Origin: Trypanosoma brucei
Taxonomy: Eukaryota
Assembly (NCBI GenBank): GCA_000002445.1
Contig: AL929603.2
Span: 896,001 to 960,000 of the forward strand
Reading direction: 5' to 3'
DNA length: 64,000 nucleotides
Shown: piece after piece, positions 9,702 through 58,903 of the stretch
Layout: every line of letters begins with the position of its first letter
How positions within the stretch are numbered: the first letter of the stretch is position 1
Program-made: the position numbers and the translations under genes
Notes under the pieces: generated by a model
What the model was told of the DNA's origin: nothing
What the model saw: the letters and a program-made list of their open reading frames with translations, nothing else
The model's database searches: none

Positions 9702-9736
<35 letters not shown>

Positions 9737-10009
9737 CATGTTATTTATTTAATCTTTTTCATCTTTTTTTTTCTCATCTTCTTCTCTCGCATTTCTCATC
9801 GTGAAACACCACGTAATTCCCTGCGCCGTAGCCCTCAGAGCCAAAGTGTAGAAGGAGAGGAGAGACATTTAAACGAAAGGGGTGGTGAAGGCGGAGGCCT
9901 CCACCAATCCGCTTCGAGTGCCCGTGCGGACGCTCACACACGCTGTAACGTTGAGCCAATAGCTTTTGTTGCGTTGCAGGAGGAAAGACGGGCGTGTCAG
10001 GTTTTGTGT

Positions 10010-24199: not shown

Positions 24200-24270
<71 letters not shown>
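24200..24270. repeat. (GT)n microsatellite, ~35 units
   Basis: Uninterrupted tgtgtg run of 71 nt, 145 nt downstream of the K+ channel stop codon. Confidence 0.95.
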
Positions 24271-38569: not shown

Positions 38570-38942
38570 CCCTAGTTTAGTTGAATTCTCGATTCTGCTC
38601 GCCGTCGCAGGCTATTTTGTAGTTTTTTTAAAAAAAAACCCTTTCCCCCCTTACATCTTTCCGCGCATAACGACGCGAGATCAGCCGCTGAGGCACTCCC
38701 CATCACTGCCGCCACCGCGGCTGAATGGTGGTGGAGTGAGTTCCCTTCCATCATTGGTAAATCGTTCGGTCGCTCATTCCGGCACCAGTGCCGTGAGTCC
38801 CATTTCAAACCAACAGCTCCCGCACCAACGGGGCCCAACCGTTTCGGAGTTGTTGCAGACCGTAGCAACTCAAAAGCAAGAAATAGAGAGACTTACGGAT
38901 AGTGTCAATGCTGTTCAGCGTAACTTTGAGCGGCTGAGTGAG

Positions 38943-41138: not shown

Positions 41139-43161
41139 TGGATGTGTTCAAATAATGATAATGATAATAGTAACAATGGTAATAGTAATAAAAATATTGT
41201 TATGATTACAATTATGATGCTTATAGGTGAATATAGTTTATGTATATATACACACGTCTGGCGTCTATTTACTGTCCAAAAGGTATTAGACATTGGAACC
41301 TGAAGGTGCGTTCGTAGTTTCATTTTTTTTCTCTTTCGTTTTTTGTTTTGTTTTTGTTCTACTCCTTGCTTTTACCTTCTCAGTTTTTACCTCTATACAT
41401 CATTTTCATGATATATGTATATTTATTTATGTCCTTGTGAAAGAAAAAATGAGCGACCAACTTCCACGACATCAACGAAGAACTAGGAGTGGAGGTAAAG
41501 GATAAATGGGGATAAATGTATTCCTTCCTCTTGTATATTATATTATTTTTGTTATTATTGTGTGCTGTATTAATCAGTGAAAGCTGCAGTTATTTGGTGC
41601 TAACAACGGTGGAGACAAAGACTTTCGCGTCGATGTGACCCGCAGGATTGAGGAAAGGACCAATAAGCGAGGATCAATAAAGGGGGAAAATAAAGGCGAT
41701 AAGCGGATCATCTCTTTTTTTTTTTCTTAAGGTCATTGCTATCATTTCTTTATGGGGAATCACTCACAACTGTAAATGTAATCGCGTACAAGTAATTGCA
41801 TTAGTTCATATACCTTTGTTTTTTTCTATACTTAACGTGTGCAGTAATGCACACATCTGTGCGGACTGACGTTTCTCCGTGGGTAACCGAATTACGGAAG
41901 GCAATTCAAATAAATGAGGGAGTTGGACTCTTTGGAGTTTGCTACACGGTGCCTGTTTGCTTTTTTATTCCTTTTTAACTTAGTGATGCTAATTAGTGTA
42001 CAAGTCACGAAGGAAAGTAAAATGCAGCCGGCACATATGGATATTATATATATATATATATATATATTCATATTACTTTATACGTCTTAATATATGATTG
42101 TTCTTTACTTTCCAGAAGTTGGGTGATCCAAAATGGGAGTGTGTTCACAAAAGGGGGGGGGGAAAAACGTAGTTCCAGAAGAGGAACAGCACAACTCATC
42201 TCATCAGGTCGGTAGGAAGAGGGTTTGCGTATATTATATATATATATATATAAATGTTTATTTCCATACACAAATGTTCTAATATATGTAAATAAATATA
42301 TTTATGTGTGTACACCTGTACAGATAATTGAGTTCTCCCACTCTGGCCGGACATCATTTTTGTTCCACAACTACACTACAGTTTTGTTCATATTCTTTCT
42401 ATTTGCAAAGGATAGTCGATCCAATATAGAATCAGTTGAATTATAGCTTATAAAGTCTAAATTTGCGTTCCCTGCTACACTTACCGTTTAGGACGACGGT
42501 AGTGCATGTGAAGAGACAAGTGTGTGTGTAAGAAAAGTACAACAATTTAAGCATCTGTGAAACAAATAGGAACCCGTCCTGGTTGTCCATCTACCATTGA
42601 AAAATTGGAATGACACATTTACAACAATTCACAAAGAAATCATCAACGCCTCACACCAGCAAAGAGTCAACATATAAGAACACAACAATTATATCAACTA
42701 GGGACAAGCTACCTTAAAAAAATTAAGAAAATAACGGAAGAGGGAAAAAAGCACAGCAACGCCGGACGAAAATTAATTTAAACAAGACAAAAAAGTTAAA
42801 GCAAGTCAACCATTCTTCACAGCAACTGTTAACGCGAAATAATATATTTCCAAAAAAAAAAGAAATCCAAAAAGCGCAAAAGAGAGTAAAAGAATATTAA
42901 AGATGTGCCATCACAACGATAACTACAAAAAAAAGATCGAAAGTACGAATTTGCTTTGCACTGTCGATTCGTTTCTATGACGGTATGCTTTATGTTATCA
43001 TTGCTGTGCAGCAGATCTTATGACAAGTGTTTATTGTAATTGTGGTGTTGTGTGATGCAGCGGTAGATTGGACGTGTGTGTACACTTGCAGCAGTGCCTC
43101 GCACAAATCGTATCTCCTCCCGGGACTTGTGCATGCAAGTTCCCCAATTTTTAACCCGTGG

Positions 43162-43242
43162 CCTTGTCACCCGTTACGCTGTGTCTGCTTTTCGTTTGTT
43201 TTGTCTCTTTCTCCCAAATTCCTTTTTGCTTCTACCTTCTGT
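43162..43242 (+). promoter_or_regulatory. Polypyrimidine tract 140-220 nt upstream of each array CDS (candidate trans-splice signal; repeated in every unit)
   Basis: gttacgctgtgtctgcttttcgtttgttttgtctctttctcccaaattcctttttgcttctaccttctgtttattg, present identically ahead of all six array genes. Confidence 0.45.
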
Positions 43243-43393
43243 TTATTGATGCGTGTGATAGTGTTTTCCGCTATCGGGACCAGAAGACCATAAGCAAGGT
43301 AACATCTGAGGCCAACCCAATTGCCATCATTTTCTTTGTCGTGAATTGTGAAGCAAACCTTTACCAAGCGTTATTTGAATAGCGGTGTACACG

Positions 43394-44977
43394 ATGTTTT
43401 TGAAGGAGGGAAACAGTGAAATGCGGTTGAGCGGAGCTACGTTCTTGAAGGGCGCTGTTGATGATTTCAATGCATGTGAGTCCCCTGTTTTATCATCCGG
43501 AAGCAGTTTGGTTCTTACAAGTCCTGCTCTGAGCACCTCAGACACGTGCCGATCTGCGATGCGTGAAACCATCCCTTCCGTTTGTGCTGGCGCAGGCCTC
43601 AGCAGTCGCTGCTCAACTGATTGCACTGTGCTGAAGTGTGTGAACCCGCTGCATGTTAAGTTCCAGGAGCCGTCAGGGTTGTCAGGGGCTGATTCAGTGG
43701 ACTCGTTTGACTCGTTGGGTGACCTTTCCGAGTTGCATGAGGAACATCAACATGTTTCTTCTGTTGCCTCTGAAAAGCCTTTGACCCTTCACGATGTGCC
43801 GGAATCCGTCCTGTATGGTGCCATTCCATACCTTTCCCTTCCAGACGTCATTGCCTTATCACGGACATGTAAGAAGTTTCACAAACTGGTGCAGGGATAC
43901 TTTGCAGTGAATGAGCATGGCGTGATGAGCATCCCCGCCTTTGACACCCGCAGCTTCATGCAGTACCGTCCAGAGAGGAAACCTCCGGTAACGAAGGCGT
44001 CATCTATGGAACCCGCAACGAAAGCTTCGGACGTGAAACCCATCCGTCTGTTTTTTGGCCAGCAACGACGGGACCCACACCCCTCAGCTCTACGGCGTCT
44101 GCTGCGCTTCATTGCACCTGACCTTGTGATTGCTCACATGGAGGCTCACACGAACCCAGTTAACGGTCGTGGCAAAGGCTGCGCGTGGGTGTTCGCCCTG
44201 TCACAATTGGATGCGGAGCGACTGTTACGACTCAGTGGGCGTATCTTCCTTGACATAAATTCTAATGGTGAGGAGGTATACCTGTTCGCTCCCCCTAACT
44301 GCCGAGAGTGGTTGAATGAGCACGCGGAGTGTGCAGTCGCTTCCGCAGTTCGTCCAAGTCACTTGCCACGACAGCCGATGGTTGTGGAAGCCCCCAGGAA
44401 GTCGAGTGCCAAAGTGGAGAAGGGGTTGGAACAATGTGTGCGTCCCCATCCACAACATCGCGGTGTTACGGAGCAGCAGGCACCCGTCGCGGCGGCCCAG
44501 CAGATGCCCGACTCTGTGGAACCATTGGTACGAGTTGGGTCTCCACAGGATGAGGGCCTGCAGCAGCAGGAGCGGCCGTCCGAGGCGTGGACGACCAGCA
44601 ATCATTCGCAAGGCGACTCAACACACGGAAGGCGCAGGTCAGGGGAGGCTCTGCAGTCGGGTGAGTCCACACCTGAGCGTTTGCAAGCAAGGCGCCGCCC
44701 ATGGTTGGTTGCGGCGGATGCTTCAGCCACTCAGCGTGCCAGGGAACTTCGGTTTTGCAGCAATTCCTCAACTTCTCTTCATCATGAAATGTGGGGATTC
44801 CACCCGGGAGCACGCCTTGGCTCTGGGGTAGGCGGTGACAGATTTATTGCGTGTCCCGAGACGACAACACGCACTGTGCCCCACAACGTGTACACAAGCA
44901 CTATATGGACAGGCCCTAGGCGGTTCCGGCACGACCCGTACGTGTACGGCCCACTGTGCGTACTAGCGGCATCTTAG
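43394..44977 (+). CDS. CFB1: F-box protein with RRM-like domain and C-terminal RxxHDPY (MKT1-binding-type) motif, copy 1 (CFB1-like)
   Basis: The track start 43385 is GTG; the first ATG is 43394 (MFLKEGNSEMRL). F-box reads LTLHDVPESVLYGAIPYLSLPDVIALSRTCKKFHKLV (~43780-43890). The RRM-like segment has an RNP2-like IRLFFGQ and an RNP1-like GKGCAWVF. The C-terminal RFRHDPYVYGPL has HDPY at ~44921-44932. Copy 1 carries the private variant NHSQGDS where the other copies have NHLQGDS. The symbol is assigned from memory of the T. brucei cyclin-F-box CFB1 tandem array followed by CFB2, and is unverified. Confidence 0.8.
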   Translation: MFLKEGNSEMRLSGATFLKGAVDDFNACESPVLSSGSSLVLTSPALSTSDTCRSAMRETIPSVCAGAGLSSRCSTDCTVLKCVNPLHVKFQEPSGLSGADSVDSFDSLGDLSELHEEHQHVSSVASEKPLTLHDVPESVLYGAIPYLSLPDVIALSRTCKKFHKLVQGYFAVNEHGVMSIPAFDTRSFMQYRPERKPPVTKASSMEPATKASDVKPIRLFFGQQRRDPHPSALRRLLRFIAPDLVIAHMEAHTNPVNGRGKGCAWVFALSQLDAERLLRLSGRIFLDINSNGEEVYLFAPPNCREWLNEHAECAVASAVRPSHLPRQPMVVEAPRKSSAKVEKGLEQCVRPHPQHRGVTEQQAPVAAAQQMPDSVEPLVRVGSPQDEGLQQQERPSEAWTTSNHSQGDSTHGRRRSGEALQSGESTPERLQARRRPWLVAADASATQRARELRFCSNSSTSLHHEMWGFHPGARLGSGVGGDRFIACPETTTRTVPHNVYTSTIWTGPRRFRHDPYVYGPLCVLAAS

Positions 44978-45835
44978 CGGTCCAACTGAGTGGTGAGCAC
45001 TCCATCGAGTCTGTGTGGTGATGCTGTGGACGGCGTGTCCCCACTGGTTGGACTGTAGTTTCTTCCCTCCCTTTTTTTATATTACGTTATGTTTTTTTTT
45101 TTTCATTTTCCACTCCCTTTCTTTGCCGTTTGCACTTTGCTCGCTTGCATTAAGGATGTCTTGGGGGTCTCTGGACCGAGTGCTGTAAGGAGGAGGGGGC
45201 AATCCTTCCCTATACAAATTACCACATATACTCATTTACACTTATACACATATACGCTTTCTATCAATCCCCACTATTTATATATACCGATTCAATTATA
45301 TGACCATGGAAAAAACATATATACAACTTCCTCCGTATGTAACAGCTTCCCCCGGTACGGCACATAGACCGTCACGGGCCTCCCATTGACATAACTTGTG
45401 CAAGACTCCTGTTCCCTGCTAATTGCAGGGAAGAGACGGCTAATTGGAACTACACCTTCCTCACCCTCATTGTTTTCATTGTTTTCTTTTGTATTTCTAT
45501 TAACCTAAGATAATTTCACTCGCTGTACTTTCTTCCCTCCCTACATCTATATGTTCCCTTATATAACTTTTATACACATGTTTTTTCCTCTCTTTTTCAT
45601 CCTATACAAACATATAAGCATACCTATATACACGTATATACATACATATATATGTTTGTTTTTATATGCCGTGACTTTGTTTCTTTTTTCCCCTTTTTAT
45701 CTCTTTTTATCCCTTTCTTTCTTTTTTTACTTTTTCATTTTGAATGCCCTTATGTAAGTAAATGCTTCTTACTAATAGAGGATTGTCCTTGGCAATTTCT
45801 CTCTTATCATTTTATTTTCCTCTCCCTTGTTCTTT

Positions 45836-46014
45836 TCGTTTTATATCATTTTTCATTTCGTTTCATTTTATATCATTTTTCATTTCGTTTCATTTTATAT
45901 CATTTTTCATTTCGTTTCATTTACTATTTTATTTTACTTTCGTTTCATTTACTATTTTATTTTACTTTTGTTTCTATTTTTGTTTCCGCTGCTCACACAC
46001 ACACACACACACAC
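45836..46014. repeat. Array-spacer minisatellites: 27-nt repeat x3, 25-nt repeat x2, then (CA)~10 (long spacer class)
   Basis: ATTTTATATCATTTTTCATTTCGTTTC x3, then ATTTACTATTTTATTTTACTTT(C/T)GTTTC x2, then cacacacacacacacacacac at 45994-46014. The short-class spacers (after copies 2 and 5) carry one 27-mer copy and (CA)~5, at ~48966-49076 and ~58285-58395. Confidence 0.85.
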
Positions 46015-46521
46015 CCTGCTCTTCCAGTTGCATGACATCATTACACACTAATTGCAGTGGTGCTCCATTTGCTGTTTGCTGAAACGTTTGATTTATTTCT
46101 TGTCCCTTTCCTCAAGCATCTCTTCGTTTAGGCAACACACCATCTTTATGACAAGTGTTTATTGTAATTGTGGTGTTGTGTGATGCAGCGGTAGATTGGA
46201 CGTGTGTGTACACTTGCAGCAGTGCCTCGCACAAATCGTATCTCCTCCCGGGACTTGTGCATGCAAGTTCCCCAATTTTTAACCCGTGGCCTTGTCACCC
46301 GTTACGCTGTGTCTGCTTTTCGTTTGTTTTGTCTCTTTCTCCCAAATTCCTTTTTGCTTCTACCTTCTGTTTATTGATGCGTGTGATAGTGTTTTCCGCT
46401 ATCGGGACCAGAAGACCATAAGCAAGGTAACATCTGAGGCCAACCCAATTGCCATCATTTTCTTTGTCGTGAATTGTGAAGCAAACCTTTACCAAGCGTT
46501 ATTTGAATAGCGGTGTACACG

Positions 46522-48105
46522 ATGTTTTTGAAGGAGGGAAACAGTGAAATGCGGTTGAGCGGAGCAGCGTTCTTGAAGGGCGCTGTTGATGATATCAATG
46601 CATGTGAGTCCCCTGTTTTATCATCCGGAAGCAGTTTGGTTCTTACAAGTCCTGCTCTGAGCACCTCAGACACGTGCCGATCTGCGATGCGTGAAACCAT
46701 CCCTTCCGTTTGTGCTGGCGCAGGCCTCAGCAGTCGCTGCTCAACTGATTGCACTGTGCTGAAGTGTGTGAACCCGCTGCATGTTAAGTTCCAGGAGCCG
46801 TCAGGGTTGTCAGGGGCTGATTCAGTGGACTCGTTTGACTCGTTGGGTGACCTTTCCGAGTTGCATGAGGAACATCAACATGTTTCTTCTGTTGCCTCTG
46901 AAAAGCCTTTGACCCTTCACGATGTGCCGGAATCCGTCCTGTATGGTGCCATTCCATACCTTTCCCTTCCAGACGTCATTGCCTTATCACGGACATGTAA
47001 GAAGTTTCACAAACTGGTGCAGGGATACTTTGCAGTGAATGAGCATGGCGTGATGAGCATCCCCGCCTTTGACACCCGCAGCTTCATGCAGTACCGTCCA
47101 GAGAGGAAACCTCCGGTAACGAAGGCGTCATCTATGGAACCCGCAACGAAAGCTTCGGACGTGAAACCCATCCGTCTGTTTTTTGGCCAGCAACGACGGG
47201 ACCCACACCCCTCAGCTCTACGGCGTCTGCTGCGTTTCATTGCACCTGACCTTGTGATTGCTCACATGGAGGCTCACACGAACCCGGTTAACGGTCGTGG
47301 CAAAGGCTGCGCGTGGGTGTTCGCCCTGTCACAATTGGATGCGGAGCGACTGTTACGACTCAGTGGGCGTATCTTCCTTGACATAAATTCTAATGGTGAG
47401 GAGGTATACCTGTTCGCTCCCCCTAACTGCCGAGAGTGGTTGAATGAGCACGCGGAGTGTGCAGTCGCTTCCGCAGTTCGTCCAAGTCACTTGCCACGAC
47501 AGCCGATGGTTGTGGAAGCCCCCAGGAAGTCGAGTGCCAAAGTGGAGAAGGGGTTGGAACAATGTGTGCGTCCCCATCCACAACATCGCGGTGTTACGGA
47601 GCAGCAGGCACCCGTCGCGGCGGCCCAGCAGATGCCCGACTCTGTGGAACCATTGGTACGAGTTGGGTCTCCACAGGATGAGGGCCTGCAGCAGCAGGAG
47701 CGGCCGTCCGAGGCGTGGACGACCAGCAATCATTTGCAAGGCGACTCAACACACGGAAGGCGCAGGTCAGGGGAGGCTCTGCAGTCGGGTGAGTCCACAC
47801 CTGAGCGTTTGCAAGCAAGGCGCCGCCCATGGTTGGTTGCGGCGGATGCTTCAGCCACTCAGCGTGCCAGGGAGCTTCGGTTTTGCAGCAATTCCTCAAC
47901 TTCTCTTCATCATGAAATGTGGGGATTCCACCCGGGAGCACGCCTTGGCTCTGGGGTAGGCGGTGACAGATTTATTGCGTGTCCCGAGACGACAACACGC
48001 ACTGTGCCCCACAACGTGTACACAAGCACTATATGGACAGGCCCTAGGCGGTTCCGGCACGACCCGTACGTGTACGGCCCACTGTGCGTACTAGCGGCAT
48101 CTTAG
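46522..48105 (+). CDS. CFB1: F-box/RRM-like protein, array copy 2 (CFB1-like), variant haplotype B
   Basis: More than 99% identical to copy 1. Diagnostic substitutions are AAFLKGAVDDINACE (haplotype B) versus ATFLKGAVDDFNACE (haplotype A, copies 1, 3 and 5). Confidence 0.8.
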   Translation: MFLKEGNSEMRLSGAAFLKGAVDDINACESPVLSSGSSLVLTSPALSTSDTCRSAMRETIPSVCAGAGLSSRCSTDCTVLKCVNPLHVKFQEPSGLSGADSVDSFDSLGDLSELHEEHQHVSSVASEKPLTLHDVPESVLYGAIPYLSLPDVIALSRTCKKFHKLVQGYFAVNEHGVMSIPAFDTRSFMQYRPERKPPVTKASSMEPATKASDVKPIRLFFGQQRRDPHPSALRRLLRFIAPDLVIAHMEAHTNPVNGRGKGCAWVFALSQLDAERLLRLSGRIFLDINSNGEEVYLFAPPNCREWLNEHAECAVASAVRPSHLPRQPMVVEAPRKSSAKVEKGLEQCVRPHPQHRGVTEQQAPVAAAQQMPDSVEPLVRVGSPQDEGLQQQERPSEAWTTSNHLQGDSTHGRRRSGEALQSGESTPERLQARRRPWLVAADASATQRARELRFCSNSSTSLHHEMWGFHPGARLGSGVGGDRFIACPETTTRTVPHNVYTSTIWTGPRRFRHDPYVYGPLCVLAAS

Positions 48106-49584
48106 CGGTCCAACTGAGTGGTGAGCACTCCATCGAGTCTGTGTGGTGATGCTGTGGACGGCGTGTCCCCACTGGTTGGACTGTAGTTTCTTCCCTCCCT
48201 TTTTTTATATTACGTTATGTTTTTTTTTTTCATTTTCCACTCCCTTTCTTTGCCGTTTGCACTTTGCTCGCTTGCATTAAGGATGTCTTGGGGGTCTCTG
48301 GACCGAGTGCTGTAAGGAGGAGGGGGCAATCCTTCCCTATACAAATTACCACATATACTCATTTACACTTATACACATATACGCTTTCTATCAATCCCCA
48401 CTATTTATATATACCGATTCAATTATATGACCATGGAAAAAACATATATACAACTTCCTCCGTATGTAACAGCTTCCCCCGGTACGGCACATAGACCGTC
48501 ACGGGCCTCCCATTGACATAACTTGTGCAAGACTCCTGTTCCCTGCTAATTGCAGGGAAGAGACGGCTAATTGGAACTACACCTTCCTCACCCTCATTGT
48601 TTTCATTGTTTTCTTTTGTATTTCTATTAACCTAAGATAATTTCACTCGCTGTACTTTCTTCCCTCCCTACATCTATATGTTCCCTTATATAACTTTTAT
48701 ACACATGTTTTTTCCTCTCTTTTTCATCCTATACAAACATATAAGCATATCTATATACACGTATATACATACATATATATGTTTGTTTTTATATGCCGTG
48801 ACTTTGTTTCTTTTTCCCCCTTTTTATCTCTTTTTATCCCTTTCTTTCTTTTTTTACTTTTTCATTTTGAATGCCCTTATGTAAGTAAACGCTTCTTACT
48901 AATAGAGGATTGTCCTTGGCAATTTCTCTCTTATCATTTTATTTTCCTCTCCCTTGTTCTTTTCGTTTTATATCATTTTTCATTTCGTTTCATTTACTAT
49001 TTTATTTTACTTTTGTTTCATTTACTATTTTATTTTACTTTTGTTTCTATTTTTGTTTCCGCTGCTCACACACACACCCTGCTCTTCCAGTTGCATGACA
49101 TCATTACACACTAATTGCAGTGGTGCTCCATTTGCTGTTTGCTGAAACGTTTGATTTATTTCTTGTCCCTTTCCTCAAGCATCTCTTCGTTTAGGCAACA
49201 CACCATCTTTATGACAAGTGTTTATTGTAATTGTGGTGTTGTGTGATGCAGCGGTAGATTGGACGTGTGTGTACACTTGCAGCAGTGCCTCGCACAAATC
49301 GTATCTCCTCCCGGGACTTGTGCATGCAAGTTCCCCAATTTTTAACCCGTGGCCTTGTCACCCGTTACGCTGTGTCTGCTTTTCGTTTGTTTTGTCTCTT
49401 TCTCCCAAATTCCTTTTTGCTTCTACCTTCTGTTTATTGATGCGTGTGATAGTGTTTTCCGCTATCGGGACCAGAAGACCATAAGCAAGGTAACATCTGA
49501 GGCCAACCCAATTGCCATCATTTTCTTTGTCGTGAATTGTGAAGCAAACCTCTACCAAGCGTTATTTGAATAGCGGTGTACACG

Positions 49585-51168
49585 ATGTTTTTGAAGGAGG
49601 GAAACAGTGAAATGCGGTTGAGCGGAGCTACGTTCTTGAAGGGCGCTGTTGATGATTTCAATGCATGTGAGTCCCCTGTTTTATCATCCGGAAGCAGTTT
49701 GGTTCTCACAAGTCCTGCTCTGAGCACCTCAGACACGTGCCGATCTGCGATGCGTGAAACCATCCCTTCCGTTTGTGCTGGCGCAGGCCTCAGCAGTCGC
49801 TGCTCAACTGATTGCACTGTGCTGAAGTGTGTGAACCCGCTGCATGTTAAGTTCCAGGAGCCGTCAGGGTTGTCAGGGGCTGATTCAGTGGACTCGTTTG
49901 ACTCGTTGGGTGACCTTTCCGAGTTGCATGAGGAACATCAACATGTTTCTTCTGTTGCCTCTGAAAAGCCTTTGACCCTTCACGATGTGCCGGAATCCGT
50001 CCTGTATGGTGCCATTCCATACCTTTCCCTTCCAGACGTCATTGCCTTATCACGGACATGTAAGAAGTTTCACAAACTGGTGCAGGGATACTTTGCAGTG
50101 AATGAGCATGGCGTGATGAGCATCCCCGCCTTTGACACCCGCAGCTTCATGCAGTACCGTCCAGAGAGGAAACCTCCGGTAACGAAGGCGTCATCTATGG
50201 AACCCGCAACGAAAGCTTCGGACGTGAAACCCATCCGTCTGTTTTTTGGCCAGCAACGACGGGACCCACACCCCTCAGCTCTACGGCGTCTGCTGCGCTT
50301 CATTGCACCTGACCTTGTGATTGCTCACATGGAGGCTCACACGAACCCAGTTAACGGTCGTGGCAAAGGCTGCGCGTGGGTGTTCGCCCTGTCACAATTG
50401 GATGCGGAGCGACTGTTACGACTCAGTGGGCGTATCTTCCTTGACATAAATTCTAATGGTGAGGAGGTATACCTGTTCGCTCCCCCTAACTGCCGAGAGT
50501 GGTTGAATGAGCACGCGGAGTGTGCAGTCGCTTCTGCAGTTCGTCCAAGTCACTTGCCACGACAGCCGATGGTTGTGGAAGCCCCCAGGAAGTCGAGTGC
50601 CAAAGTGGAGAAGGGGTTGGAACAATGTGTGCGTCCCCATCCACAACATCGCGGTGTTACGGAGCAGCAGGCACCCGTCGCGGCGGCCCAGCAGATGCCC
50701 GACTCTGTGGAACCATTGGTACGAGTTGGGTCTCCACAGGATGAGGGCCTGCAGCAGCAGGAGCGGCCGTCCGAGGCGTGGACGACCAGCAATCATTTGC
50801 AAGGCGACTCAACACACGGAAGGCGCAGGTCAGGGGAGGCTCTGCAGTCGGGTGAGTCCACACCTGAGCGTTTGCAAGCAAGGCGCCGCCCATGGTTGGT
50901 TGCGGCGGATGCTTCAGCCACTCAGCGTGCCAGGGAGCTTCGGTTTTGCAGCAATTCCTCAACTTCTCTTCATCATGAAATGTGGGGATTCCACCCGGGA
51001 GCACGCCTTGGCTCTGGGGTAGGCGGTGACAGATTTATTGCGTGTCCCGAGACGACAACACGCACTGTGCCCCACAACGTGTACACAAGCACTATATGGA
51101 CAGGCCCTAGGCGGTTCCGGCACGACCCGTACGTGTACGGCCCACTGTGCGTACTAGCGGCATCTTAG
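49585..51168 (+). CDS. CFB1: F-box/RRM-like protein, array copy 3 (CFB1-like), haplotype A
   Basis: Identical in protein to copy 5 and differs from copy 1 at one residue (NHLQ versus NHSQ). Confidence 0.8.
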   Translation: MFLKEGNSEMRLSGATFLKGAVDDFNACESPVLSSGSSLVLTSPALSTSDTCRSAMRETIPSVCAGAGLSSRCSTDCTVLKCVNPLHVKFQEPSGLSGADSVDSFDSLGDLSELHEEHQHVSSVASEKPLTLHDVPESVLYGAIPYLSLPDVIALSRTCKKFHKLVQGYFAVNEHGVMSIPAFDTRSFMQYRPERKPPVTKASSMEPATKASDVKPIRLFFGQQRRDPHPSALRRLLRFIAPDLVIAHMEAHTNPVNGRGKGCAWVFALSQLDAERLLRLSGRIFLDINSNGEEVYLFAPPNCREWLNEHAECAVASAVRPSHLPRQPMVVEAPRKSSAKVEKGLEQCVRPHPQHRGVTEQQAPVAAAQQMPDSVEPLVRVGSPQDEGLQQQERPSEAWTTSNHLQGDSTHGRRRSGEALQSGESTPERLQARRRPWLVAADASATQRARELRFCSNSSTSLHHEMWGFHPGARLGSGVGGDRFIACPETTTRTVPHNVYTSTIWTGPRRFRHDPYVYGPLCVLAAS

Positions 51169-52711
51169 CGGTCCAACTGAGTGGTGAGCACTCCATCGAG
51201 TCTGTGTGGTGATGCTGTGGACGGCGTGTCCCCACTGGTTGGACTGTAGTTTCTTCCCTCCCTTTTTTTATATTACGTTATGTTTTTTTTTTTCATTTTC
51301 CACTCCCTTTCTTTGCCGTTTGCACTTTGCTCGCTTGCATTAAGGATGTCTTGGGGGTCTCTGGACCGAGTGCTGTAAGGAGGAGGGGGCAATCCTTCCC
51401 TATACAAATTACCACATATACTCATTTACACTTATACACATATACGCTTTCTATCAATCCCCACTATTTATATATACCGATTCAATTATATGACCATGGA
51501 AAAAACATATATACAGCTTCCTCCGTATGTAACAGCTTCCCCCGGTACGGCACATAGACCGTCACGGGCCTCCCATTGACATAACTTGTGCAAGACTCCT
51601 GTTCCCTGCTAATTGCAGGGAAGAGACGGCTAATTGGAACTACACCTTCCTCACCCTCATTGTTTTCATTGTTTTCTTTTGTATTTCTATTAACCTAAGA
51701 TAATTTCACTCGCTGTACTTTCTTCCCTCCCTACATCTATATGTTCCCTTATATAACTTTTATACACATGTTTTTTCCTCTCTTTTTCATCCTATACAAA
51801 CATATAAGCATACCTATATACACGTATATACATACATATATATGTTTGTTTTTATATGCCGTGACTTTGTTTCTTTTTTCCCCTTTTTATCTCTTTTTAT
51901 CCCTTTCTTTCTTTTTTTACTTTTTCATTTTGAATGCCCTTATGTAAGTAAATGCTTCTTACTAATAGAGGATTGTCCTTGGCAATTTCTCTCTTATCAT
52001 TTTATTTTCCTCTCCCTTGTTCTTTTCGTTTTATATCATTTTTCATTTCGTTTCATTTTATATCATTTTTCATTTCGTTTCATTTTATATCATTTTTCAT
52101 TTCGTTTCATTTACTATTTTATTTTACTTTCGTTTCATTTACTATTTTATTTTACTTTTGTTTCTATTTTTGTTTCCGCTGCTCACACACACACACACAC
52201 ACACCCTGCTCTTCCAGTTGCATGACATCATTACACACTAATTGCAGTGGTGCTCCATTTGCTGTTTGCTGAAACGTTTGATTTATTTCTTGTCCCTTTC
52301 CTCAAGCATCTCTTCGTTTAGGCAACACACCATCTTTATGACAAGTGTTTATTGTAATTGTGGTGTTGTGTGATGCAGCGGTAGATTGGACGTGTGTGTA
52401 CACTTGCAGCAGTGCCTCGCACAAATCGTATCTCCTCCCGGGACTTGTGCATGCAAGTTCCCCAATTTTTAACCCGTGGCCTTGTCACCCGTTACGCTGT
52501 GTCTGCTTTTCGTTTGTTTTGTCTCTTTCTCCCAAATTCCTTTTTGCTTCTACCTTCTGTTTATTGATGCGTGTGATAGTGTTTTCCGCTATCGGGACCA
52601 GAAGACCATAAGCAAGGTAACATCTGAGGCCAACCCAATTGCCATCATTTTCTTTGTCGTGAATTGTGAAGCAAACCTTTACCAAGCGTTATTTGAATAG
52701 CGGTGTACACG

Positions 52712-54295
52712 ATGTTTTTGAAGGAGGGAAACAGTGAAATGCGGTTGAGCGGAGCAGCGTTCTTGAAGGGCGCTGTTGATGATATCAATGCATGTGAGTC
52801 CCCTGTTTTATCATCCGGAAGCAGTTTGGTTCTTACAAGTCCTGCTCTGAGCACCTCAGACACGTGCCGATCTGCGATGCGTGAAACCATCCCTTCCGTT
52901 TGTGCTGGCGCAGGCCTCAGCAGTCGCTGCTCAACTGATTGCACTGTGCTGAAGTGTGTGAACCCGCTGCATGTTAAGTTCCAGGAGCCGTCAGGGTTGT
53001 CAGGGGCTGATTCAGTGGACTCGTTTGACTCGTTGGGTGACCTTTCCGAGTTGCATGAGGAACATCAACATGTTTCTTCTGTTGCCTCTGAAAAGCCTTT
53101 GACCCTTCACGATGTGCCGGAATCCGTCCTGTATGGTGCCATTCCATACCTTTCCCTTCCAGACGTCATTGCCTTATCACGGACATGTAAGAAGTTTCAC
53201 AAACTGGTGCAGGGATACTTTGCAGTGAATGAGCATGGCGTGATGAGCATCCCCGCCTTTGACACCCGCAGCTTCATGCAGTACCGTCCGGAGAGGAAAC
53301 CTCCGGTAACGAAGGCGTCATCTATGGAACCCGCAACGAAAGCTTCGGACGTGAAGCCCATCCGTCTGTTTTTTGGCCAGCAACGACGGGACCCACACCC
53401 CTCAGCTCTACGGCGTCTGCTGCGCTTCATTGCACCTGACCTTGTGATTGCTCACATGGAGGCTCACACGAACCCAGTTAACGGTCGTGGCAAAGGCTGC
53501 GCGTGGGTGTTCGCCCTGTCACAATTGGATGCGGAGCGACTGTTACGACTCAGTGGGCGTATCTTCCTTGACATAAATTCTAATGGTGAGGAGGTATACC
53601 TGTTCGCTCCCCCTAACTGCCGAGAGTGGTTGAATGAGCACGCGGAGTGTGCAGTCGCTTCCGCAGTTCGTCCAAGTCACTTGCCACGACAGCCGATGGT
53701 TGTGGAAGCCCCCAGGAAGTCGAGTGCCAAAGTGGAGAAGGGGTTGGAACAATGTGTGCGTCCCCATCCACAACATCGCGGTGTTACGGAGCAGCAGGCA
53801 CCCGTCGCGGCGGCCCAGCAGATGCCCGACTCTGTGGAACCATTGGTACGAGTTGGGTCTCCACAGGATGAGGGCCTGCAGCAGCAGGAGCGGCCGTCCG
53901 AGGCGTGGACGACCAGCAATCATTTGCAAGGCGACTCAACACACGGAAGGCGCAGGTCAGGGGAGGCTCTGCAGTCGGGTGAGTCCACACCTGAGCGTTT
54001 GCAAGCAAGGCGCCGCCCATGGTTGGTTGCGGCGGATGCTTCAGCCACTCAGCGTGCCAGGGAGCTTCGGTTTTGCAGCAATTCCTCAACTTCTCTTCAT
54101 CATGAAATGTGGGGATTCCACCCGGGAGCACGCCTTGGCTCTGGGGTAGGCGGTGACAGATTTATTGCGTGTCCCGAGACGACAACACGCACTGTGCCCC
54201 ACAACGTGTACACAAGCACTATATGGACAGGCCCTAGGCGGTTCCGGCACGACCCGTACGTGTACGGCCCACTGTGCGTACTAGCGGCATCTTAG
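52712..54295 (+). CDS. CFB1: F-box/RRM-like protein, array copy 4 (CFB1-like), haplotype B
   Basis: Protein identical to copy 2. Confidence 0.8.
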   Translation: MFLKEGNSEMRLSGAAFLKGAVDDINACESPVLSSGSSLVLTSPALSTSDTCRSAMRETIPSVCAGAGLSSRCSTDCTVLKCVNPLHVKFQEPSGLSGADSVDSFDSLGDLSELHEEHQHVSSVASEKPLTLHDVPESVLYGAIPYLSLPDVIALSRTCKKFHKLVQGYFAVNEHGVMSIPAFDTRSFMQYRPERKPPVTKASSMEPATKASDVKPIRLFFGQQRRDPHPSALRRLLRFIAPDLVIAHMEAHTNPVNGRGKGCAWVFALSQLDAERLLRLSGRIFLDINSNGEEVYLFAPPNCREWLNEHAECAVASAVRPSHLPRQPMVVEAPRKSSAKVEKGLEQCVRPHPQHRGVTEQQAPVAAAQQMPDSVEPLVRVGSPQDEGLQQQERPSEAWTTSNHLQGDSTHGRRRSGEALQSGESTPERLQARRRPWLVAADASATQRARELRFCSNSSTSLHHEMWGFHPGARLGSGVGGDRFIACPETTTRTVPHNVYTSTIWTGPRRFRHDPYVYGPLCVLAAS

Positions 54296-55840
54296 CGGTC
54301 CAACTGAGTGGTGAGCACTCCATCGAGTCTGTGTGGTGATGCTGTGGACGGCGTGTCCCCACTGGTTGGACTGTAGTTTCTTCCCTCCCTTTTTTTATAT
54401 TACGTTATGTTTTTTTTTTTCATTTTCCACTCCCTTTCTTTGCCGTTTGCACTTTGCTCGCTTGCATTAAGGATGTCTTGGGGGTCTCTGGACCGAGTGC
54501 TGTAAGGAGGAGGGGGCAATCCTTCCCTATACAAATTACCACATATACTCATTTACACTTATACACATATACGCTTTCTATCAATCCCCACTATTTATAT
54601 ATACCGATTCAATTATATGACCATGGAAAAAACATATATACAACTTCCTCCGTATGTAACAGCTTCCCCCGGTACGGCACATAGACCGTCACGGGCCTCC
54701 CATTGACATAACTTGTGCAAGACTCCTGTTCCCTGCTAATTGCAGGGAAGAGACGGCTAATTGGAACTACACCTTCCTCACCCTCATTGTTTTCATTGTT
54801 TTCTTTTGTATTTCTATTAACCTAAGATAATTTCACTCGCTGTACTTTCTTCCCTCCCTACATCTATATGTTCCCTTATATAACTTTTATACACATGTTT
54901 TTTCCTCTCTTTTTCATCCTATACAAACATATAAGCATACCTATATACACGTATATACATACATATATATGTTTGTTTTTATATGCCGTGACTTTGTTTC
55001 TTTTTTCCCCTTTTTATCTCTTTTTATCCCTTTCTTTCTTTTTTTACTTTTTCATTTTGAATGCCCTTATGTAAGTAAATGCTTCTTACTAATAGAGGAT
55101 TGTCCTTGGCAATTTCTCTCTTATCATTTTATTTTCCTCTCCCTTGTTCTTTTCGTTTTATATCATTTTTCATTTCGTTTCATTTTATATCATTTTTCAT
55201 TTCGTTTCATTTTATATCATTTTTCATTTCGTTTCATTTACTATTTTATTTTACTTTCGTTTCATTTACTATTTTATTTTACTTTTGTTTCTATTTTTGT
55301 TTCCGCTGCTCACACACACACACACACACACACCCTGCTCTTCCAGTTGCATGACATCATTACACACTAATTGCAGTGGTGCTCCATTTGCTGTTTGCTG
55401 AAACGTTTGATTTATTTCTTGTCCCTTTCCTCAAGCATCTCTTCGTTTAGGCAACACACCATCTTTATGACAAGTGTTTATTGTAATTGTGGTGTTGTGT
55501 GATGCAGCGGTAGATTGGACGTGTGTGTACACTTGCAGCAGTGCCTCGCACAAATCGTATCTCCTCCCGGGACTTGTGCATGCAAGTTCCCCAATTTTTA
55601 ACCCGTGGCCTTGTCACCCGTTACGCTGTGTCTGCTTTTCGTTTGTTTTGTCTCTTTCTCCCAAATTCCTTTTTGCTTCTACCTTCTGTTTATTGATGCG
55701 TGTGATAGTGTTTTCCGCTATCGGGACCAGAAGACCATAAGCAAGGTAACATCTGAGGCCAACCCAATTGCCATCATTTTCTTTGTCGTGAATTGTGAAG
55801 CAAACCTTTACCAAGCGTTATTTGAATAGCGGTGTACACG

Positions 55841-57424
55841 ATGTTTTTGAAGGAGGGAAACAGTGAAATGCGGTTGAGCGGAGCTACGTTCTTGAAGGGC
55901 GCTGTTGATGATTTCAATGCATGTGAGTCCCCTGTTTTATCATCCGGAAGCAGTTTGGTTCTTACAAGTCCTGCTCTGAGCACCTCAGACACGTGCCGAT
56001 CTGCGATGCGTGAAACCATCCCTTCCGTTTGTGCTGGCGCAGGCCTCAGCAGTCGCTGCTCAACTGATTGCACTGTGCTGAAGTGTGTGAACCCGCTGCA
56101 TGTTAAGTTCCAGGAGCCGTCAGGGTTGTCAGGGGCTGATTCAGTGGACTCGTTTGACTCGTTGGGTGACCTTTCCGAGTTGCATGAGGAACATCAACAT
56201 GTTTCTTCTGTTGCCTCTGAAAAGCCTTTGACCCTTCACGATGTGCCGGAATCCGTCCTGTATGGTGCCATTCCATACCTTTCCCTTCCAGACGTCATTG
56301 CCTTATCACGGACATGTAAGAAGTTTCACAAACTGGTGCAGGGATACTTTGCAGTGAATGAGCATGGCGTGATGAGCATCCCCGCCTTTGACACCCGCAG
56401 CTTCATGCAGTACCGTCCAGAGAGGAAACCTCCGGTAACGAAGGCGTCATCTATGGAACCCGCAACGAAAGCTTCGGACGTGAAACCCATCCGTCTGTTT
56501 TTTGGCCAGCAACGACGGGACCCACACCCCTCAGCTCTACGGCGTCTGCTGCGCTTCATTGCACCTGACCTTGTGATTGCTCACATGGAGGCTCACACGA
56601 ACCCAGTTAACGGTCGTGGCAAAGGCTGCGCGTGGGTGTTCGCCCTGTCACAATTGGATGCGGAGCGACTGTTACGACTCAGTGGGCGTATCTTCCTTGA
56701 CATAAATTCTAATGGTGAGGAGGTATACCTGTTCGCTCCCCCTAACTGCCGAGAGTGGTTGAATGAGCACGCGGAGTGTGCAGTCGCTTCCGCAGTTCGT
56801 CCAAGTCACTTGCCACGACAGCCGATGGTTGTGGAAGCCCCCAGGAAGTCGAGTGCCAAAGTGGAGAAGGGGTTGGAACAATGTGTGCGTCCCCATCCAC
56901 AACATCGCGGTGTTACGGAGCAGCAGGCACCCGTCGCGGCGGCCCAGCAGATGCCCGACTCTGTGGAACCATTGGTACGAGTTGGGTCTCCACAGGATGA
57001 GGGCCTGCAGCAGCAGGAGCGGCCGTCCGAGGCGTGGACGACCAGCAATCATTTGCAAGGCGACTCAACACACGGAAGGCGCAGGTCAGGGGAGGCTCTG
57101 CAGTCGGGTGAGTCCACACCTGAGCGTTTGCAAGCAAGGCGCCGCCCATGGTTGGTTGCGGCGGATGCTTCAGCCACTCAGCGTGCCAGGGAACTTCGGT
57201 TTTGCAGCAATTCCTCAACTTCTCTTCATCATGAAATGTGGGGATTCCACCCGGGAGCACGCCTTGGCTCTGGGGTAGGCGGTGACAGATTTATTGCGTG
57301 TCCCGAGACGACAACACGCACTGTGCCCCACAACGTGTACACAAGCACTATATGGACAGGCCCTAGGCGGTTCCGGCACGACCCGTACGTGTACGGCCCA
57401 CTGTGCGTACTAGCGGCATCTTAG
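55841..57424 (+). CDS. CFB1: F-box/RRM-like protein, array copy 5 (CFB1-like), haplotype A
   Basis: Protein identical to copy 3. Confidence 0.8.
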   Translation: MFLKEGNSEMRLSGATFLKGAVDDFNACESPVLSSGSSLVLTSPALSTSDTCRSAMRETIPSVCAGAGLSSRCSTDCTVLKCVNPLHVKFQEPSGLSGADSVDSFDSLGDLSELHEEHQHVSSVASEKPLTLHDVPESVLYGAIPYLSLPDVIALSRTCKKFHKLVQGYFAVNEHGVMSIPAFDTRSFMQYRPERKPPVTKASSMEPATKASDVKPIRLFFGQQRRDPHPSALRRLLRFIAPDLVIAHMEAHTNPVNGRGKGCAWVFALSQLDAERLLRLSGRIFLDINSNGEEVYLFAPPNCREWLNEHAECAVASAVRPSHLPRQPMVVEAPRKSSAKVEKGLEQCVRPHPQHRGVTEQQAPVAAAQQMPDSVEPLVRVGSPQDEGLQQQERPSEAWTTSNHLQGDSTHGRRRSGEALQSGESTPERLQARRRPWLVAADASATQRARELRFCSNSSTSLHHEMWGFHPGARLGSGVGGDRFIACPETTTRTVPHNVYTSTIWTGPRRFRHDPYVYGPLCVLAAS

Positions 57425-58903
57425 CGGTCCAACTGAGTGGTGAGCACTCCATCGAGTCTGTGTGGTGATGCTGTGGACGGCGTGTCCCCACTGGTTGGAC
57501 TGTAGTTTCTTCCCTCCCTTTTTTTATATTACGTTATGTTTTTTTTTTTCATTTTCCACTCCCTTTCTTTGCCGTTTGCACTTTGCTCGCTTGCATTAAG
57601 GATGTCTTGGGGGTCTCTGGACCGAGTGCTGTAAGGAGGAGGGGGCAATCCTTCCCTATACAAATTACCACATATACTCATTTACACTTATACACATATA
57701 CGCTTTCTATCAATCCCCACTATTTATATATACCGATTCAATTATATGACCATGGAAAAAACATATATACAACTTCCTCCGTATGTAACAGCTTCCCCCG
57801 GTACGGCACATAGACCGTCACGGGCCTCCCATTGACATAACTTGTGCAAGACTCCTGTTCCCTGCTAATTGCAGGGAAGAGACGGCTAATTGGAACTACA
57901 CCTTCCTCACCCTCATTGTTTTCATTGTTTTCTTTTGTATTTCTATTAACCTAAGATAATTTCACTCGCTGTACTTTCTTCCCTCCCTACATCTATATGT
58001 TCCCTTATATAACTTTTATACACATGTTTTTTCCTCTCTTTTTCATCCTATACAAACATATAAGCATATCTATATACACGTATATACATACATATATATG
58101 TTTGTTTTTATATGCCGTGACTTTGTTTCTTTTTCCCCCTTTTTATCTCTTTTTATCCCTTTCTTTCTTTTTTTACTTTTTCATTTTGAATGCCCTTATG
58201 TAAGTAAACGCTTCTTACTAATAGAGGATTGTCCTTGGCAATTTCTCTCTTATCATTTTATTTTCCTCTCCCTTGTTCTTTTCGTTTTATATCATTTTTC
58301 ATTTCGTTTCATTTACTATTTTATTTTACTTTTGTTTCATTTACTATTTTATTTTACTTTTGTTTCTATTTTTGTTTCCGCTGCTCACACACACACCCTG
58401 CTCTTCCAGTTGCATGACATCATTACACACTAATTGCAGTGGTGCTCCATTTGCTGTTTGCTGAAACGTTTGATTTATTTCTTGTCCCTTTCCTCAAGCA
58501 TCTCTTCGTTTAGGCAACACACCATCTTTATGACAAGTGTTTATTGTAATTGTGGTGTTGTGTGATGCAGCGGTAGATTGGACGTGTGTGTACACTTGCA
58601 GCAGTGCCTCGCACAAATCGTATCTCCTCCCGGGACTTGTGCATGCAAGTTCCCCAATTTTTAACCCGTGGCCTTGTCACCCGTTACGCTGTGTCTGCTT
58701 TTCGTTTGTTTTGTCTCTTTCTCCCAAATTCCTTTTTGCTTCTACCTTCTGTTTATTGATGCGTGTGATAGTGTTTTCCGCTATCGGAACCAGAAGACCA
58801 TAAGCAAGGTAACATCTGAGGCCAACCCAATTGCCATCATTTTCTTTGTCGTGAATTGTGAAGCAAACCTCTACCAAGCGTTATTTGAATAGCGGTGTAC
58901 ACG

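What the first reader, a model, noticed from the sequence alone, without database searches (positions are those of the whole stretch)
43394..57424. Ordered alternation of two coding haplotypes and two spacer-length classes along the array
The CDS haplotype alternates A-B-A-B-A. A is ...GATFLKGAVDDFNACE and B is ...GAAFLKGAVDDINACE, which differ by two linked amino-acid changes. The downstream spacers run long-short-long-long-short (3128/3063/3127/3129/3063). The length classes track the copy number of a 27-nt minisatellite (three versus one) and a (CA) run (~10 versus ~5). Copy 1 carries one private change, NHSQ versus NHLQ. Scattered synonymous differences (for example gaacttcgg versus gagcttcgg in copies 1 and 5 versus 2 to 4, and cgcttcatt versus cgtttcatt) do not co-segregate with the A/B marker. 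That points to short gene-conversion tracts shuffling variants between units, not a simple duplication of a two-unit block.
Basis: seen in the sequence. Interest (0 to 1): 0.55.

Follow-up and report, generated by a model that had tools for sequence, protein, structure and literature searches.

The report
Mosaic variants in trypanosome CFB1 array
The five near-identical CFB1 genes of the Trypanosoma brucei reference genome do carry the alternating protein variants and two spacer lengths described, but this is an ordinary, already-surveyed case of tandem gene copies swapping sequence, and the order of the copies rests on an old assembly that pooled both chromosome homologues.

Summary
The window is T. 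b. brucei TREU927 chromosome 1, 896,001-960,000. The array is CFB1A-E followed by CFB2 (Tb927.1.4540-4650).

Every sequence fact in the finding checks out: A-B-A-B-A, periods 3128/3063/3127/3129/3063, the 27-nt motif at three versus one copy, (CA)10/5/10/11/5, and the private and shared SNPs.

The variants fall into three partitions that occupy separate blocks:
- {2,4}: 3 nt within 29 bp at the CDS 5' end.
- {2,3,4}: a single site.
- {2,5}: a spacer block of at least 803 bp.

These partitions fail the four-gamete test, and there is no two-unit higher-order repeat. So intra-locus exchange, not a dimer duplication, is supported.

"Short tracts" are shown only in two places: patches of at most ~55 bp shared between CFB1 and CFB2, including the B dinucleotide, and a breakpoint between sites 645 and 765.

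B and the long spacer are seen only in TREU927 among the genomes I could fetch. The alternation has a chance probability of 0.1.

Unit order needs at least 1.6 kb of linkage to reconstruct. Chromosome 1 was shotgun-assembled from both homologues. Recombination in this array is already published (PHI p<0.001). The finding is real, ordinary and of low interest.

The parts
43018..43393 (+). Partial spacer copy upstream of CFB1A. It is 376 bp, identical to the last 376 bp of spacer 1, and presumably carries the 5' processing signals and 5' UTR.
43394..44977 (+). CFB1A (Tb927.1.4540), haplotype A (T16, F25). It has the private S405 (TCG at 44607) and GAA at codon 451 (44746).
44978..46521 (+). Spacer 1, long class (1544 bp). 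The 27-nt motif occurs 3 times (minisatellite 45830-45979) and the run is (CA)10 at 45994-46013. It has a private +T at 45092.
46522..48105 (+). CFB1B, haplotype B. The patch is at 46566, 46567 and 46594 (GCAGCG...ATC). It has private 714T and retains 765G, the state found in all other strains.
48106..49584 (+). Spacer 2, short class (1479 bp). The 27-nt motif occurs once and the run is (CA)5 at 49067-49076. The class-specific SNP block spans 48750-49552.
49585..51168 (+). CFB1C (Tb927.1.4580), haplotype A, with GAG at codon 451 and private 123C and 951T.
51169..52711 (+). Spacer 3, long class (1543 bp), with private 1933G and (CA)10 at 52184-52203.
52712..54295 (+). CFB1D, haplotype B. The patch is at 52756, 52757 and 52784. 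It has private 579G and retains 645G, the usual CFB1 state elsewhere.
54296..55840 (+). Spacer 4, long class (1545 bp), with (CA)11 at 55311-55332.
55841..57424 (+). CFB1E, haplotype A, with GAA at codon 451. Its CDS differs from CFB1A at one site only.
57425..58903 (+). Spacer 5, short class (1479 bp). It has the same SNP block as spacer 2 (58069-58871) and (CA)5 at 58386-58395. It retains 3013A, the state found in other strains.
58904..60334 (+). CFB2 (Tb927.1.4650), the diverged terminal paralogue. At 58948-58949 it carries the same GCAGCG dinucleotide as the B copies, flanked by CFB2-specific bases at +20 and +76.

Best explanation
This is the CFB1A-E plus CFB2 cyclin-F-box gene array of T. 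b. brucei TREU927 chromosome 1.

**Shown.**
- The five 3.1-kb units are about 99.7% identical.
- Their few differences form a mosaic of three independently distributed blocks: a 29-bp patch at the CDS 5' end (copies 2 and 4), one synonymous site (copies 2-4), and a spacer haplotype of at least 803 bp that also carries the minisatellite and (CA)n length difference (units 2 and 5).

**Inferred mechanism.**
- The units are kept alike, and variants are moved between them, by homologous exchange within the locus. This would be non-reciprocal gene conversion and/or unequal sister or homologue crossover.
- The tracts range from tens of bp to about 1 kb.
- Replication slippage in a compound 27-nt minisatellite and in (CA)n created the two lengths.

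**Inferred origin of B.**
- B is most simply a CFB1 copy that took the adjacent-dinucleotide state GCAGCG from CFB2. The CFB2 genes of both TREU927 and T. b. gambiense carry that state.
- The transferred patch was 2-55 bp.
- B then gained F25I and was copied into a second unit.

**The alternation.** A-B-A-B-A is a TREU927-specific arrangement with no demonstrated meaning.
For: - **Identity of the locus.** The proteins are exact matches to CAJ16660/62/64/66/69/71 of TREU927. The coordinates match array 6, Tb927.1.4540-4650, at chr1 939394-956334.
- **Mosaic structure.** The variant table is. The four-gamete and block-clustering test gave 28/55 incompatible pairs, p=0.007 and Rm=1.
- **Concerted evolution.** Sites 606, 777, 1488, 2543-4, 2577 and 2690 are fixed in all five TREU927 units and differ from every T. 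equiperdum and T. b. gambiense unit. The reverse holds for T. equiperdum-specific sites.
- **Partial sweeps.** The TREU927 majority alleles at 645, 765 and 3013 occupy 4 of 5 units, and a different unit retains the state seen in the other genomes each time. Sites 645 and 765 fail the four-gamete test within 120 bp when other strains are included.
- **Patches between paralogues.** TREU927 CFB1 B equals CFB2 at positions 45-46, bounded at 55 bp or less. The 645A state equals the CFB2 state, bounded at 38 bp or less. T. b. gambiense CFB2 is CFB1-like at +10 and +20 (11-38 bp). T. equiperdum IVM-t1 CFB2 is CFB1-like at 9 diagnostic sites within 15 bp, bounded at 58 bp or less.
- **Published survey.** PHI p<0.001 and at least 8 GARD breakpoints are reported for this array. 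CFB1/CFB2 copy number changes in culture.
Against: - Only five units and three informative partitions are available, and the minimum number of recombination events within TREU927 is 1.
- The conflict between site 1353 and the spacer rests on one transition, which could be recurrent.
- The A/B-versus-spacer conflict and the unit order depend on linkage across 0.9-1.6 kb of sequence that is identical between units.
- Chromosome 1 was assembled from shotgun reads of both homologues. Their heterozygosity (pi 0.0022) is similar to the inter-unit diversity here (pi 0.0029).
- Jackson 2007 flagged no conversion event in this array.
- The direction of the CFB2-to-CFB1 transfer rests on parsimony over three strains.
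- The IVM-t1 assembly is a hybrid with low PacBio read depth (7,508 reads), polished with short reads. Its CFB2 patch is absent from the T. equiperdum OVI fragment.
Confidence: 0.68

Rival explanations
1. The pattern is an assembly or allelic composite. The order of the units, and possibly which CDS sits next to which spacer, is an artefact of assembling near-identical 3.1-kb repeats from capillary shotgun reads drawn from both chromosome-1 homologues. Some 'inter-unit' variants would then really be allelic.
For: - Enumeration of all reconstructions consistent with reads of length R gave these results.
  - The order is unique only at R of 1600 or more.
  - At 985-1500 bp, three orders fit equally: ABABA, ABAAB and AABAB.
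  - At 800 bp or less, an arrangement with A always on long spacers and B always on short spacers fits. That arrangement needs no recombination.
- Chromosomes 1 and 9-11 of TREU927 hold data from two homologues, with pi=0.0022. Inter-unit pi is 0.0029.
- Jackson 2007 warns about the same problem.
Against: - The short-range haplotypes lie within one read length, so they exist in the DNA. These are the B patch with CFB1 flanks, 645/714/765, and spacer 3096 joined to the next CDS.
- Finished Sanger projects used 2-4 kb read pairs, which could supply the 1.6-kb linkage (my own knowledge, not checked here).
- For reads of 880 bp or more, every allowed reconstruction still contains aL, aS, gL and gS units.
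- Five CFB1 copies plus CFB2 are also assembled in T. equiperdum IVM-t1.
Confidence: 0.25
2. The array is a two-unit higher-order repeat. An A-B dimer was duplicated to give (AB)(AB)A, and the remaining differences are later decay.
For: The A/B marker alternates perfectly. With CFB2 included, the 45-46 dinucleotide alternates over six genes.
Against: - Units two apart share nothing beyond the 29-bp patch.
- Copies 2 and 4 differ at 4 CDS sites and carry different spacer classes.
- Units 2 and 5 share the spacer block, and copies 1 and 5 have the most similar CDSs.
- The alternation has a 0.1 probability by chance.
Confidence: 0.04
3. The heterogeneity is functional and maintained by selection. 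Two CFB1 protein isoforms and two 3' UTR classes would be kept because they are regulated or act differently.
For: - Two of the three B changes alter amino acids.
- The length difference probably lies in the distal 3' UTR. This is inferred from the polypyrimidine tract and AG sites at about 46310-46412.
- CFB1 mRNA is developmentally regulated.
Against: - B and the long spacer are absent from the T. b. gambiense DAL972, T. equiperdum IVM-t1 and OVI, and ERR034315 sequences.
- The changes lie outside the F-box, the central conserved region and the HDPY motif.
- The minisatellite varies freely between strains and units.
- CFB1 function is unknown and it appears to be little expressed as protein compared with CFB2.
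Confidence: 0.04
4. No exchange occurred. The shared variants arose by recurrent point mutation and recurrent slippage in independently evolving copies.
For: Site 1353 is a single transition. Minisatellite and CA lengths are prone to homoplasy.
Against: - The short class shares five SNPs as well as two indels over at least 803 bp.
- B shares three linked changes.
- An identical adjacent dinucleotide appears in both CFB1 B and CFB2.
- Array-wide strain-specific fixed sites cannot arise without homogenisation.
Confidence: 0.02

Closest known systems
Concerted evolution and sequence mosaics in T. brucei tandem gene arrays (Jackson 2007, PMC1855330; Jackson et al. 2010, PMC2854126)
   Same: - It is the same genome and the same array (array 6, Tb927.1.4540-4650).
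- Within-genome copies are more alike than orthologues.
- Coding and UTR segments give conflicting groupings.
- The array tests positive for recombination (PHI p<0.001).
   Different: - Those surveys give only summary statistics for this array, and the 2007 paper flagged no conversion event in it.
- They do not describe the A/B patch, its identity with the CFB2 dinucleotide, the two spacer haplotypes or the per-site phasing.
Higher-order repeat organisation, such as alpha-satellite or multi-unit rDNA and snRNA arrays (my own knowledge)
   Same: One marker alternates with a period of two units.
   Different: The period-2 signal is confined to 3 nt. The rest of the unit shows no i/i+2 similarity, so the defining feature is not met.
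Segmental (mosaic) gene conversion among VSG genes in T. brucei (my own knowledge; mentioned)
   Same: Short patches are copied between diverged paralogues in the same organism, as between CFB1 and CFB2 here.
   Different: - Here the exchange is between adjacent housekeeping or regulatory genes inside a chromosome-internal polycistron.
- It is not selected by immunity.
- It is seen as a few fixed patches, not as an active diversification system.
Minisatellite and microsatellite length polymorphism by replication slippage or unequal exchange (my own knowledge)
   Same: The length classes differ by exactly two 27-nt units and five CA units. Other strains and units show further copy-number states.
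   Different: In TREU927 the two lengths are embedded in a haplotype block of at least 803 bp with five linked SNPs. The class is therefore inherited or copied as a block, not regenerated by slippage each time.

Membership tests
CFB1/CFB2 gene array of T. brucei chromosome 1 | Encoded proteins are identical to the deposited TREU927 CFB1A-E and CFB2 proteins. | tested here: met
   - The cluster look-up lists CAJ16660 as unique, CAJ16662 = CAJ16666, and CAJ16664 = CAJ16669. This matches copy 1, copies 2 and 4, and copies 3 and 5.
- CFB2 matches CAJ16671.
CFB1/CFB2 gene array of T. brucei chromosome 1 | Chromosomal position and copy number: five CFB1 genes followed by CFB2. | tested here: met
   Jackson 2007 Table S3 places array 6, with 6 copies, at chr1 939394-956334. 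That equals window 43394-60334. CFB2 lying downstream of several CFB1 genes is stated.
CFB1/CFB2 gene array of T. brucei chromosome 1 | An F-box domain is present. | tested here: inconclusive
   Pfam F-box-like scored 18.6 bits (cut-off 24.3) and F-box 16.8 bits (cut-off 20.5) at residues 134-167, which is below threshold. The literature reports a CFB2-SKP1 interaction that depends on F-box residues.
CFB1/CFB2 gene array of T. brucei chromosome 1 | A C-terminal (F)RHDPY MKT1-interaction motif is present. | tested here: met
   RRFRHDPYV is present in all five CFB1 translations and RYRHDPYV in CFB2. The motif is defined in PMC3985637.
Two-unit higher-order repeat | Units i and i+2 are more similar to each other than to other units along the whole unit. 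| tested here: not met
   SNP differences are 5, 9 and 10 for i/i+2 pairs, against 7, 7 and 7 for i/i+3 and i/i+4 pairs. Only 3 nt alternate.
Concerted evolution by intra-locus gene conversion or unequal crossover | Substitutions are fixed across all copies of one genome and absent from all copies of another. | tested here: met
   Six or more TREU927-specific and seven or more T. equiperdum-specific array-wide sites were found.
Concerted evolution by intra-locus gene conversion or unequal crossover | Adjacent segments support incompatible groupings of the copies. | tested here: met
   - The four-gamete test gave 28/55 incompatible pairs, with blocks clustered at p=0.007.
- Rm is 1 in TREU927, 3 in T. 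equiperdum and 13 when pooled.
- Caveat: the long-range linkages depend on the assembly.
Concerted evolution by intra-locus gene conversion or unequal crossover | Donor-like patches are bounded by recipient-specific sequence, so tract limits can be set. | tested here: met
   Patches between CFB1 and CFB2 measure 2-55, 1-38, 11-38 and 15-58 bp. The IVM-t1 patch carries an assembly caveat.
Concerted evolution by intra-locus gene conversion or unequal crossover | The exchange is non-reciprocal, meaning conversion and not crossover. | not testable with these tools
   This needs pedigrees, experimental lines, or many phased arrays.
Repeat mis-assembly or allelic composite | Reads from two homologues were pooled, and the inter-repeat identical stretches are longer than a read. 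| tested here: met
   Pooling is stated in PMC2854126. Unique reconstruction needs at least 1.6 kb of linkage.
Repeat mis-assembly or allelic composite | Reads or read pairs contradict the published order. | not testable with these tools
   No TREU927 reads or alternative TREU927 assembly could be reached. Exact-protein look-ups for the TREU927 CFB1 and CFB2 proteins found nothing.

The most novel reading that the evidence does not exclude
The CFB1 array and CFB2 form one exchange pool. CFB2 is the essential stabiliser of VSG mRNA. Patches of about 55 bp or less would move in both directions between CFB2 and the five neighbouring CFB1 genes. In that case the apparently dispensable CFB1 array would act as a reservoir that alters, or repairs, CFB2 coding sequence differently in each strain. 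The two CFB1 3' UTR haplotypes would give differently regulated transcripts.
Probability: 0.1. Interest if true: 0.4.

Novelty: already known. Interest (0 to 1): 0.17.

Why it matters
The finding has little importance by itself. It is a worked example of how tandem genes in trypanosomes stay alike while carrying small mosaics, and this array has already tested positive for recombination in a published survey.

Practical points:
- Users of the TREU927 reference should not treat CFB1A-E as reliably ordered, distinct loci. Chromosome 1 is a two-homologue shotgun consensus, and the unit order needs at least 1.6 kb of linkage.
- CFB1 and CFB2 share patches that differ by strain. This matters when designing paralogue-specific RNAi, CRISPR or peptide reagents for CFB2, an essential VSG-mRNA-binding protein.
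- The locus is known to change copy number in culture, which fits ongoing exchange.

Tried and rejected
- **TREU927 contigs.** I looked up contigs encoding the exact TREU927 CFB1A, B/D, C/E and CFB2 proteins, hoping for an independent TREU927 assembly or Logan contigs. Nothing was on record.
- **Other genomes as checks on unit order.** DAL972 proved unusable: it has N runs, truncated CFB1 ORFs, and CFB2 placed among CFB1 fragments. IVM-t1 is a hybrid assembly with few PacBio reads (7,508), short-read polishing and reference-guided chromosome building. I used its within-array mosaic only as weak support.
- **Chromosome I paper.** I tried to read Hall et al. 2003, but it is not held.
- **Other donors for the short-spacer SNPs.** I searched the rest of the window by BLAST. 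The spacer has no homologue outside the array except the 376-bp stub before CFB1A.
- **Second protein-database search with the B N-terminus.** I considered this and dropped it. The first search returned only one CFB1 cluster, and all 15 of its members were inspected.
- **Two-unit duplication model.** Rejected on the per-site phasing.

Full report
**What the locus is.**
The region holds five almost identical + strand ORFs followed by a diverged sixth. Their translations from the ATG (527 aa) are exact matches to T. b. brucei TREU927 proteins. CAJ16660 matches copy 1. CAJ16662 and CAJ16666 match copies 2 and 4. CAJ16664 and CAJ16669 match copies 3 and 5. The sixth ORF matches CAJ16671.

Jackson's 2007 table places 'array 6, Tb927.1.4540-4650, 6 copies, F-box domain' at chr1 939394-956334. 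That is window 43394-60334, so the window is chr1 896,001-960,000. The genes are CFB1A-E and CFB2. CFB2 binds and stabilises VSG mRNA. The function of CFB1 is unknown. All large ORFs in the window are on the + strand.

**Checking the observation.**
Start-to-start distances are 3128/3063/3127/3129/3063. These are periods. The true spacers are 1544/1479/1543/1545/1479.

A MAFFT alignment of the five units gives 11 variable CDS sites plus spacer variants.
- Haplotype B (copies 2 and 4) differs from A by three nucleotides within 29 bp: GCT ACG to GCA GCG, and TTC to ATC. These give T16A and F25I.
- S405 is private to copy 1.
- GAA/GAG at codon 451 splits copies {1,5} from {2,3,4}.
- CGT at codon 238 is private to copy 2.
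- The 27-nt motif count is 3/1/3/3/1 and the CA run is 10/5/10/11/5.

These span at least 803 bp in the short units, or 867 bp in long-unit coordinates.

**Phasing.**
There are three partitions of the units, and each is confined to its own block.
- {2,4} at positions 45-73.
- {2,3,4} at position 1353.
- {2,5} at positions 2230-3096.

The remaining variants are singletons. Of the 55 informative site pairs, 28 fail the four-gamete test. The like-partition sites are clustered (permutation p=0.007). The minimum number of recombination events is 1, placed between 1353 and 2230.

The A/B marker is compatible with site 1353, and with the spacer that precedes each CDS. The conflict is with the spacer that follows. 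There is no two-unit higher-order repeat. Whole-unit SNP differences for i/i+2 pairs are 5, 9 and 10, while i/i+3 and i/i+4 pairs are all 7. The most similar CDSs are copies 1 and 5. Perfect alternation of 2 B among 5 positions has a probability of 0.1.

**Comparison with other genomes.**
I fetched the array from three sources.
- T. equiperdum IVM-t1, which has five CFB1 copies plus CFB2, with periods of 3060-3064.
- T. b. gambiense DAL972, which is gappy in this region.
- A collapsed 3064-bp Logan contig from run ERR034315.

None of these carries B or the 54-bp insertion. A/B and the long class are therefore seen only in TREU927 among the genomes available. Both TREU927 spacer classes carry features not seen in the other genomes.

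Several sites are fixed in all five TREU927 units but differ from every unit elsewhere, and the reverse also holds. This is the mark of concerted evolution.

Three TREU927 'singletons' (645G in copy 4, 765G in copy 2, 3013A in unit 5) are the states found in the other strains. The TREU927 majority allele has therefore reached four of five units, leaving a different unit unconverted each time. Sites 645 and 765 lie 120 bp apart and so sit within one read. They fail the four-gamete test once the GG haplotype of other strains is included.

**CFB1/CFB2 patches.**
TREU927 CFB2 carries GCAGCG at +45/46, exactly the B dinucleotide, between CFB2-specific bases at +20 and +76. T. b. gambiense CFB2 also has it. 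IVM-t1 CFB2 has the CFB1-type GCTACG.

I scored 345 CFB1/CFB2 diagnostic sites. The switched patches and their bounds are as follows.
- 2-55 bp in TREU927 CFB1B and CFB1D.
- 1-38 bp for 645A in four TREU927 CFB1 copies and one T. b. gambiense copy.
- 11-38 bp in T. b. gambiense CFB2 ('KEGNS').
- 15-58 bp, covering nine sites, in IVM-t1 CFB2.

This is the only place where short tracts are actually bounded. By parsimony B is a CFB2-derived micro-patch plus a new F25I mutation, later copied to a second unit. The tract shared by copies 2 and 4 around B is only bounded to between 29 bp and ~1.8 kb.

**Caveats on the assembly.**
I enumerated every sequence with the same read-length-R spectrum as the published array.
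- The order is unique only for R of 1600 or more.
- For R of 985-1500, three orders fit: ABABA, ABAAB and AABAB.
- For R of 800 or less, an arrangement with A always on long spacers and B always on short spacers fits. That arrangement needs no recombination.

Jackson et al. 2010 state that chromosomes 1 and 9-11 of TREU927 came from shotgun data containing both homologues, with pi=0.0022. Inter-unit pi here is 0.0029. Some paralogous variants could therefore be allelic, and the alternation could be a finishing choice.

The short-range haplotypes are safe. The long-range linkages are not verifiable here. IVM-t1 is a hybrid assembly with few PacBio reads (7,508), short-read polishing and reference-guided chromosome building. 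Its CFB2 patch is absent from the T. equiperdum OVI fragment.

**What is already known.**
Jackson 2007 surveyed this array among 47, found concerted evolution, and flagged no conversion event in it. Jackson et al. 2010 list it in Table 2 with PHI p<0.001 and at least 8 GARD breakpoints. Mulindwa et al. 2021 saw the CFB1/CFB2 cluster gain copies in culture. The kind of phenomenon, and recombination in this very array, are therefore published. The per-site description and the CFB2-like origin of B are small additions.

**Verdict.**
Exchange occurred and there is no dimer duplication. However, short tracts are shown only for the CFB1/CFB2 patches, the singleton argument is invalid, conversion cannot be separated from unequal crossover, and the order depends on the assembly.
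- The finding is ordinary and of low interest.

Noticed in passing
window 7221-9026 and 9575-11602 (+): Two adjacent large ORFs lie at the position of Jackson's tandem pair 5b, Tb927.1.4370-4380 (chr1 903224-907602). This is another duplicated locus in the window.
   Followed up: no
window 24200-24270: A perfect (GT)35 microsatellite, with a weak BLAST match to the (CA)n part of the CFB1 spacer.
   Followed up: no
window 38736-41138 (+): A coiled-coil RING-finger protein gene of 800 aa by the mechanical GTG start (called as 731 aa in T. equiperdum) lies immediately upstream of the array (zf-RING_UBOX, 5.6e-8). The same neighbour is present in T. equiperdum.
   Followed up: partly
L003 and L005 (T. 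b. gambiense DAL972, FN554964.1, 680719-712419): The DAL972 assembly of this locus has several N runs, truncated CFB1 ORFs (306, 279 and 309 aa), and CFB2 placed between CFB1 fragments. This is probably mis-assembly and not a real rearrangement.
   Followed up: partly
window 57328 and equivalents (CFB1 position 1488); aligned base at about 60205 in CFB2: All five TREU927 CFB1 copies and TREU927 CFB2 have C at one aligned site just before the conserved NVYTS...RHDPY region. The other strains have A in CFB1 and T in CFB2. This is either a locus-wide micro-conversion or a coincidence.
   Followed up: partly
window 45652-46035, 48779-49114, 51842-52225, 54969-55370, 58098-58433: ORFs of 111-133 aa run through the T-rich minisatellite of each spacer, and alternative-frame and antisense ORFs lie inside each CFB1 CDS. 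They recur only because the unit is repeated and show no sign of being genes.
   Followed up: no
L002 3878-19189 (T. equiperdum IVM-t1 array): The T. equiperdum array has its own internal mosaic. Partitions {1,4}, {4,5}, {2,3} and {1,2} are interleaved, and the minimum number of recombination events is 3. All of its spacers are about 3060-3064 bp.
   Followed up: partly
window 43385 versus 43394: The mechanical ORF call starts at a GTG 9 nt upstream of the annotated ATG. The finding's start coordinate (43394) is the annotated ATG.
   Followed up: yes
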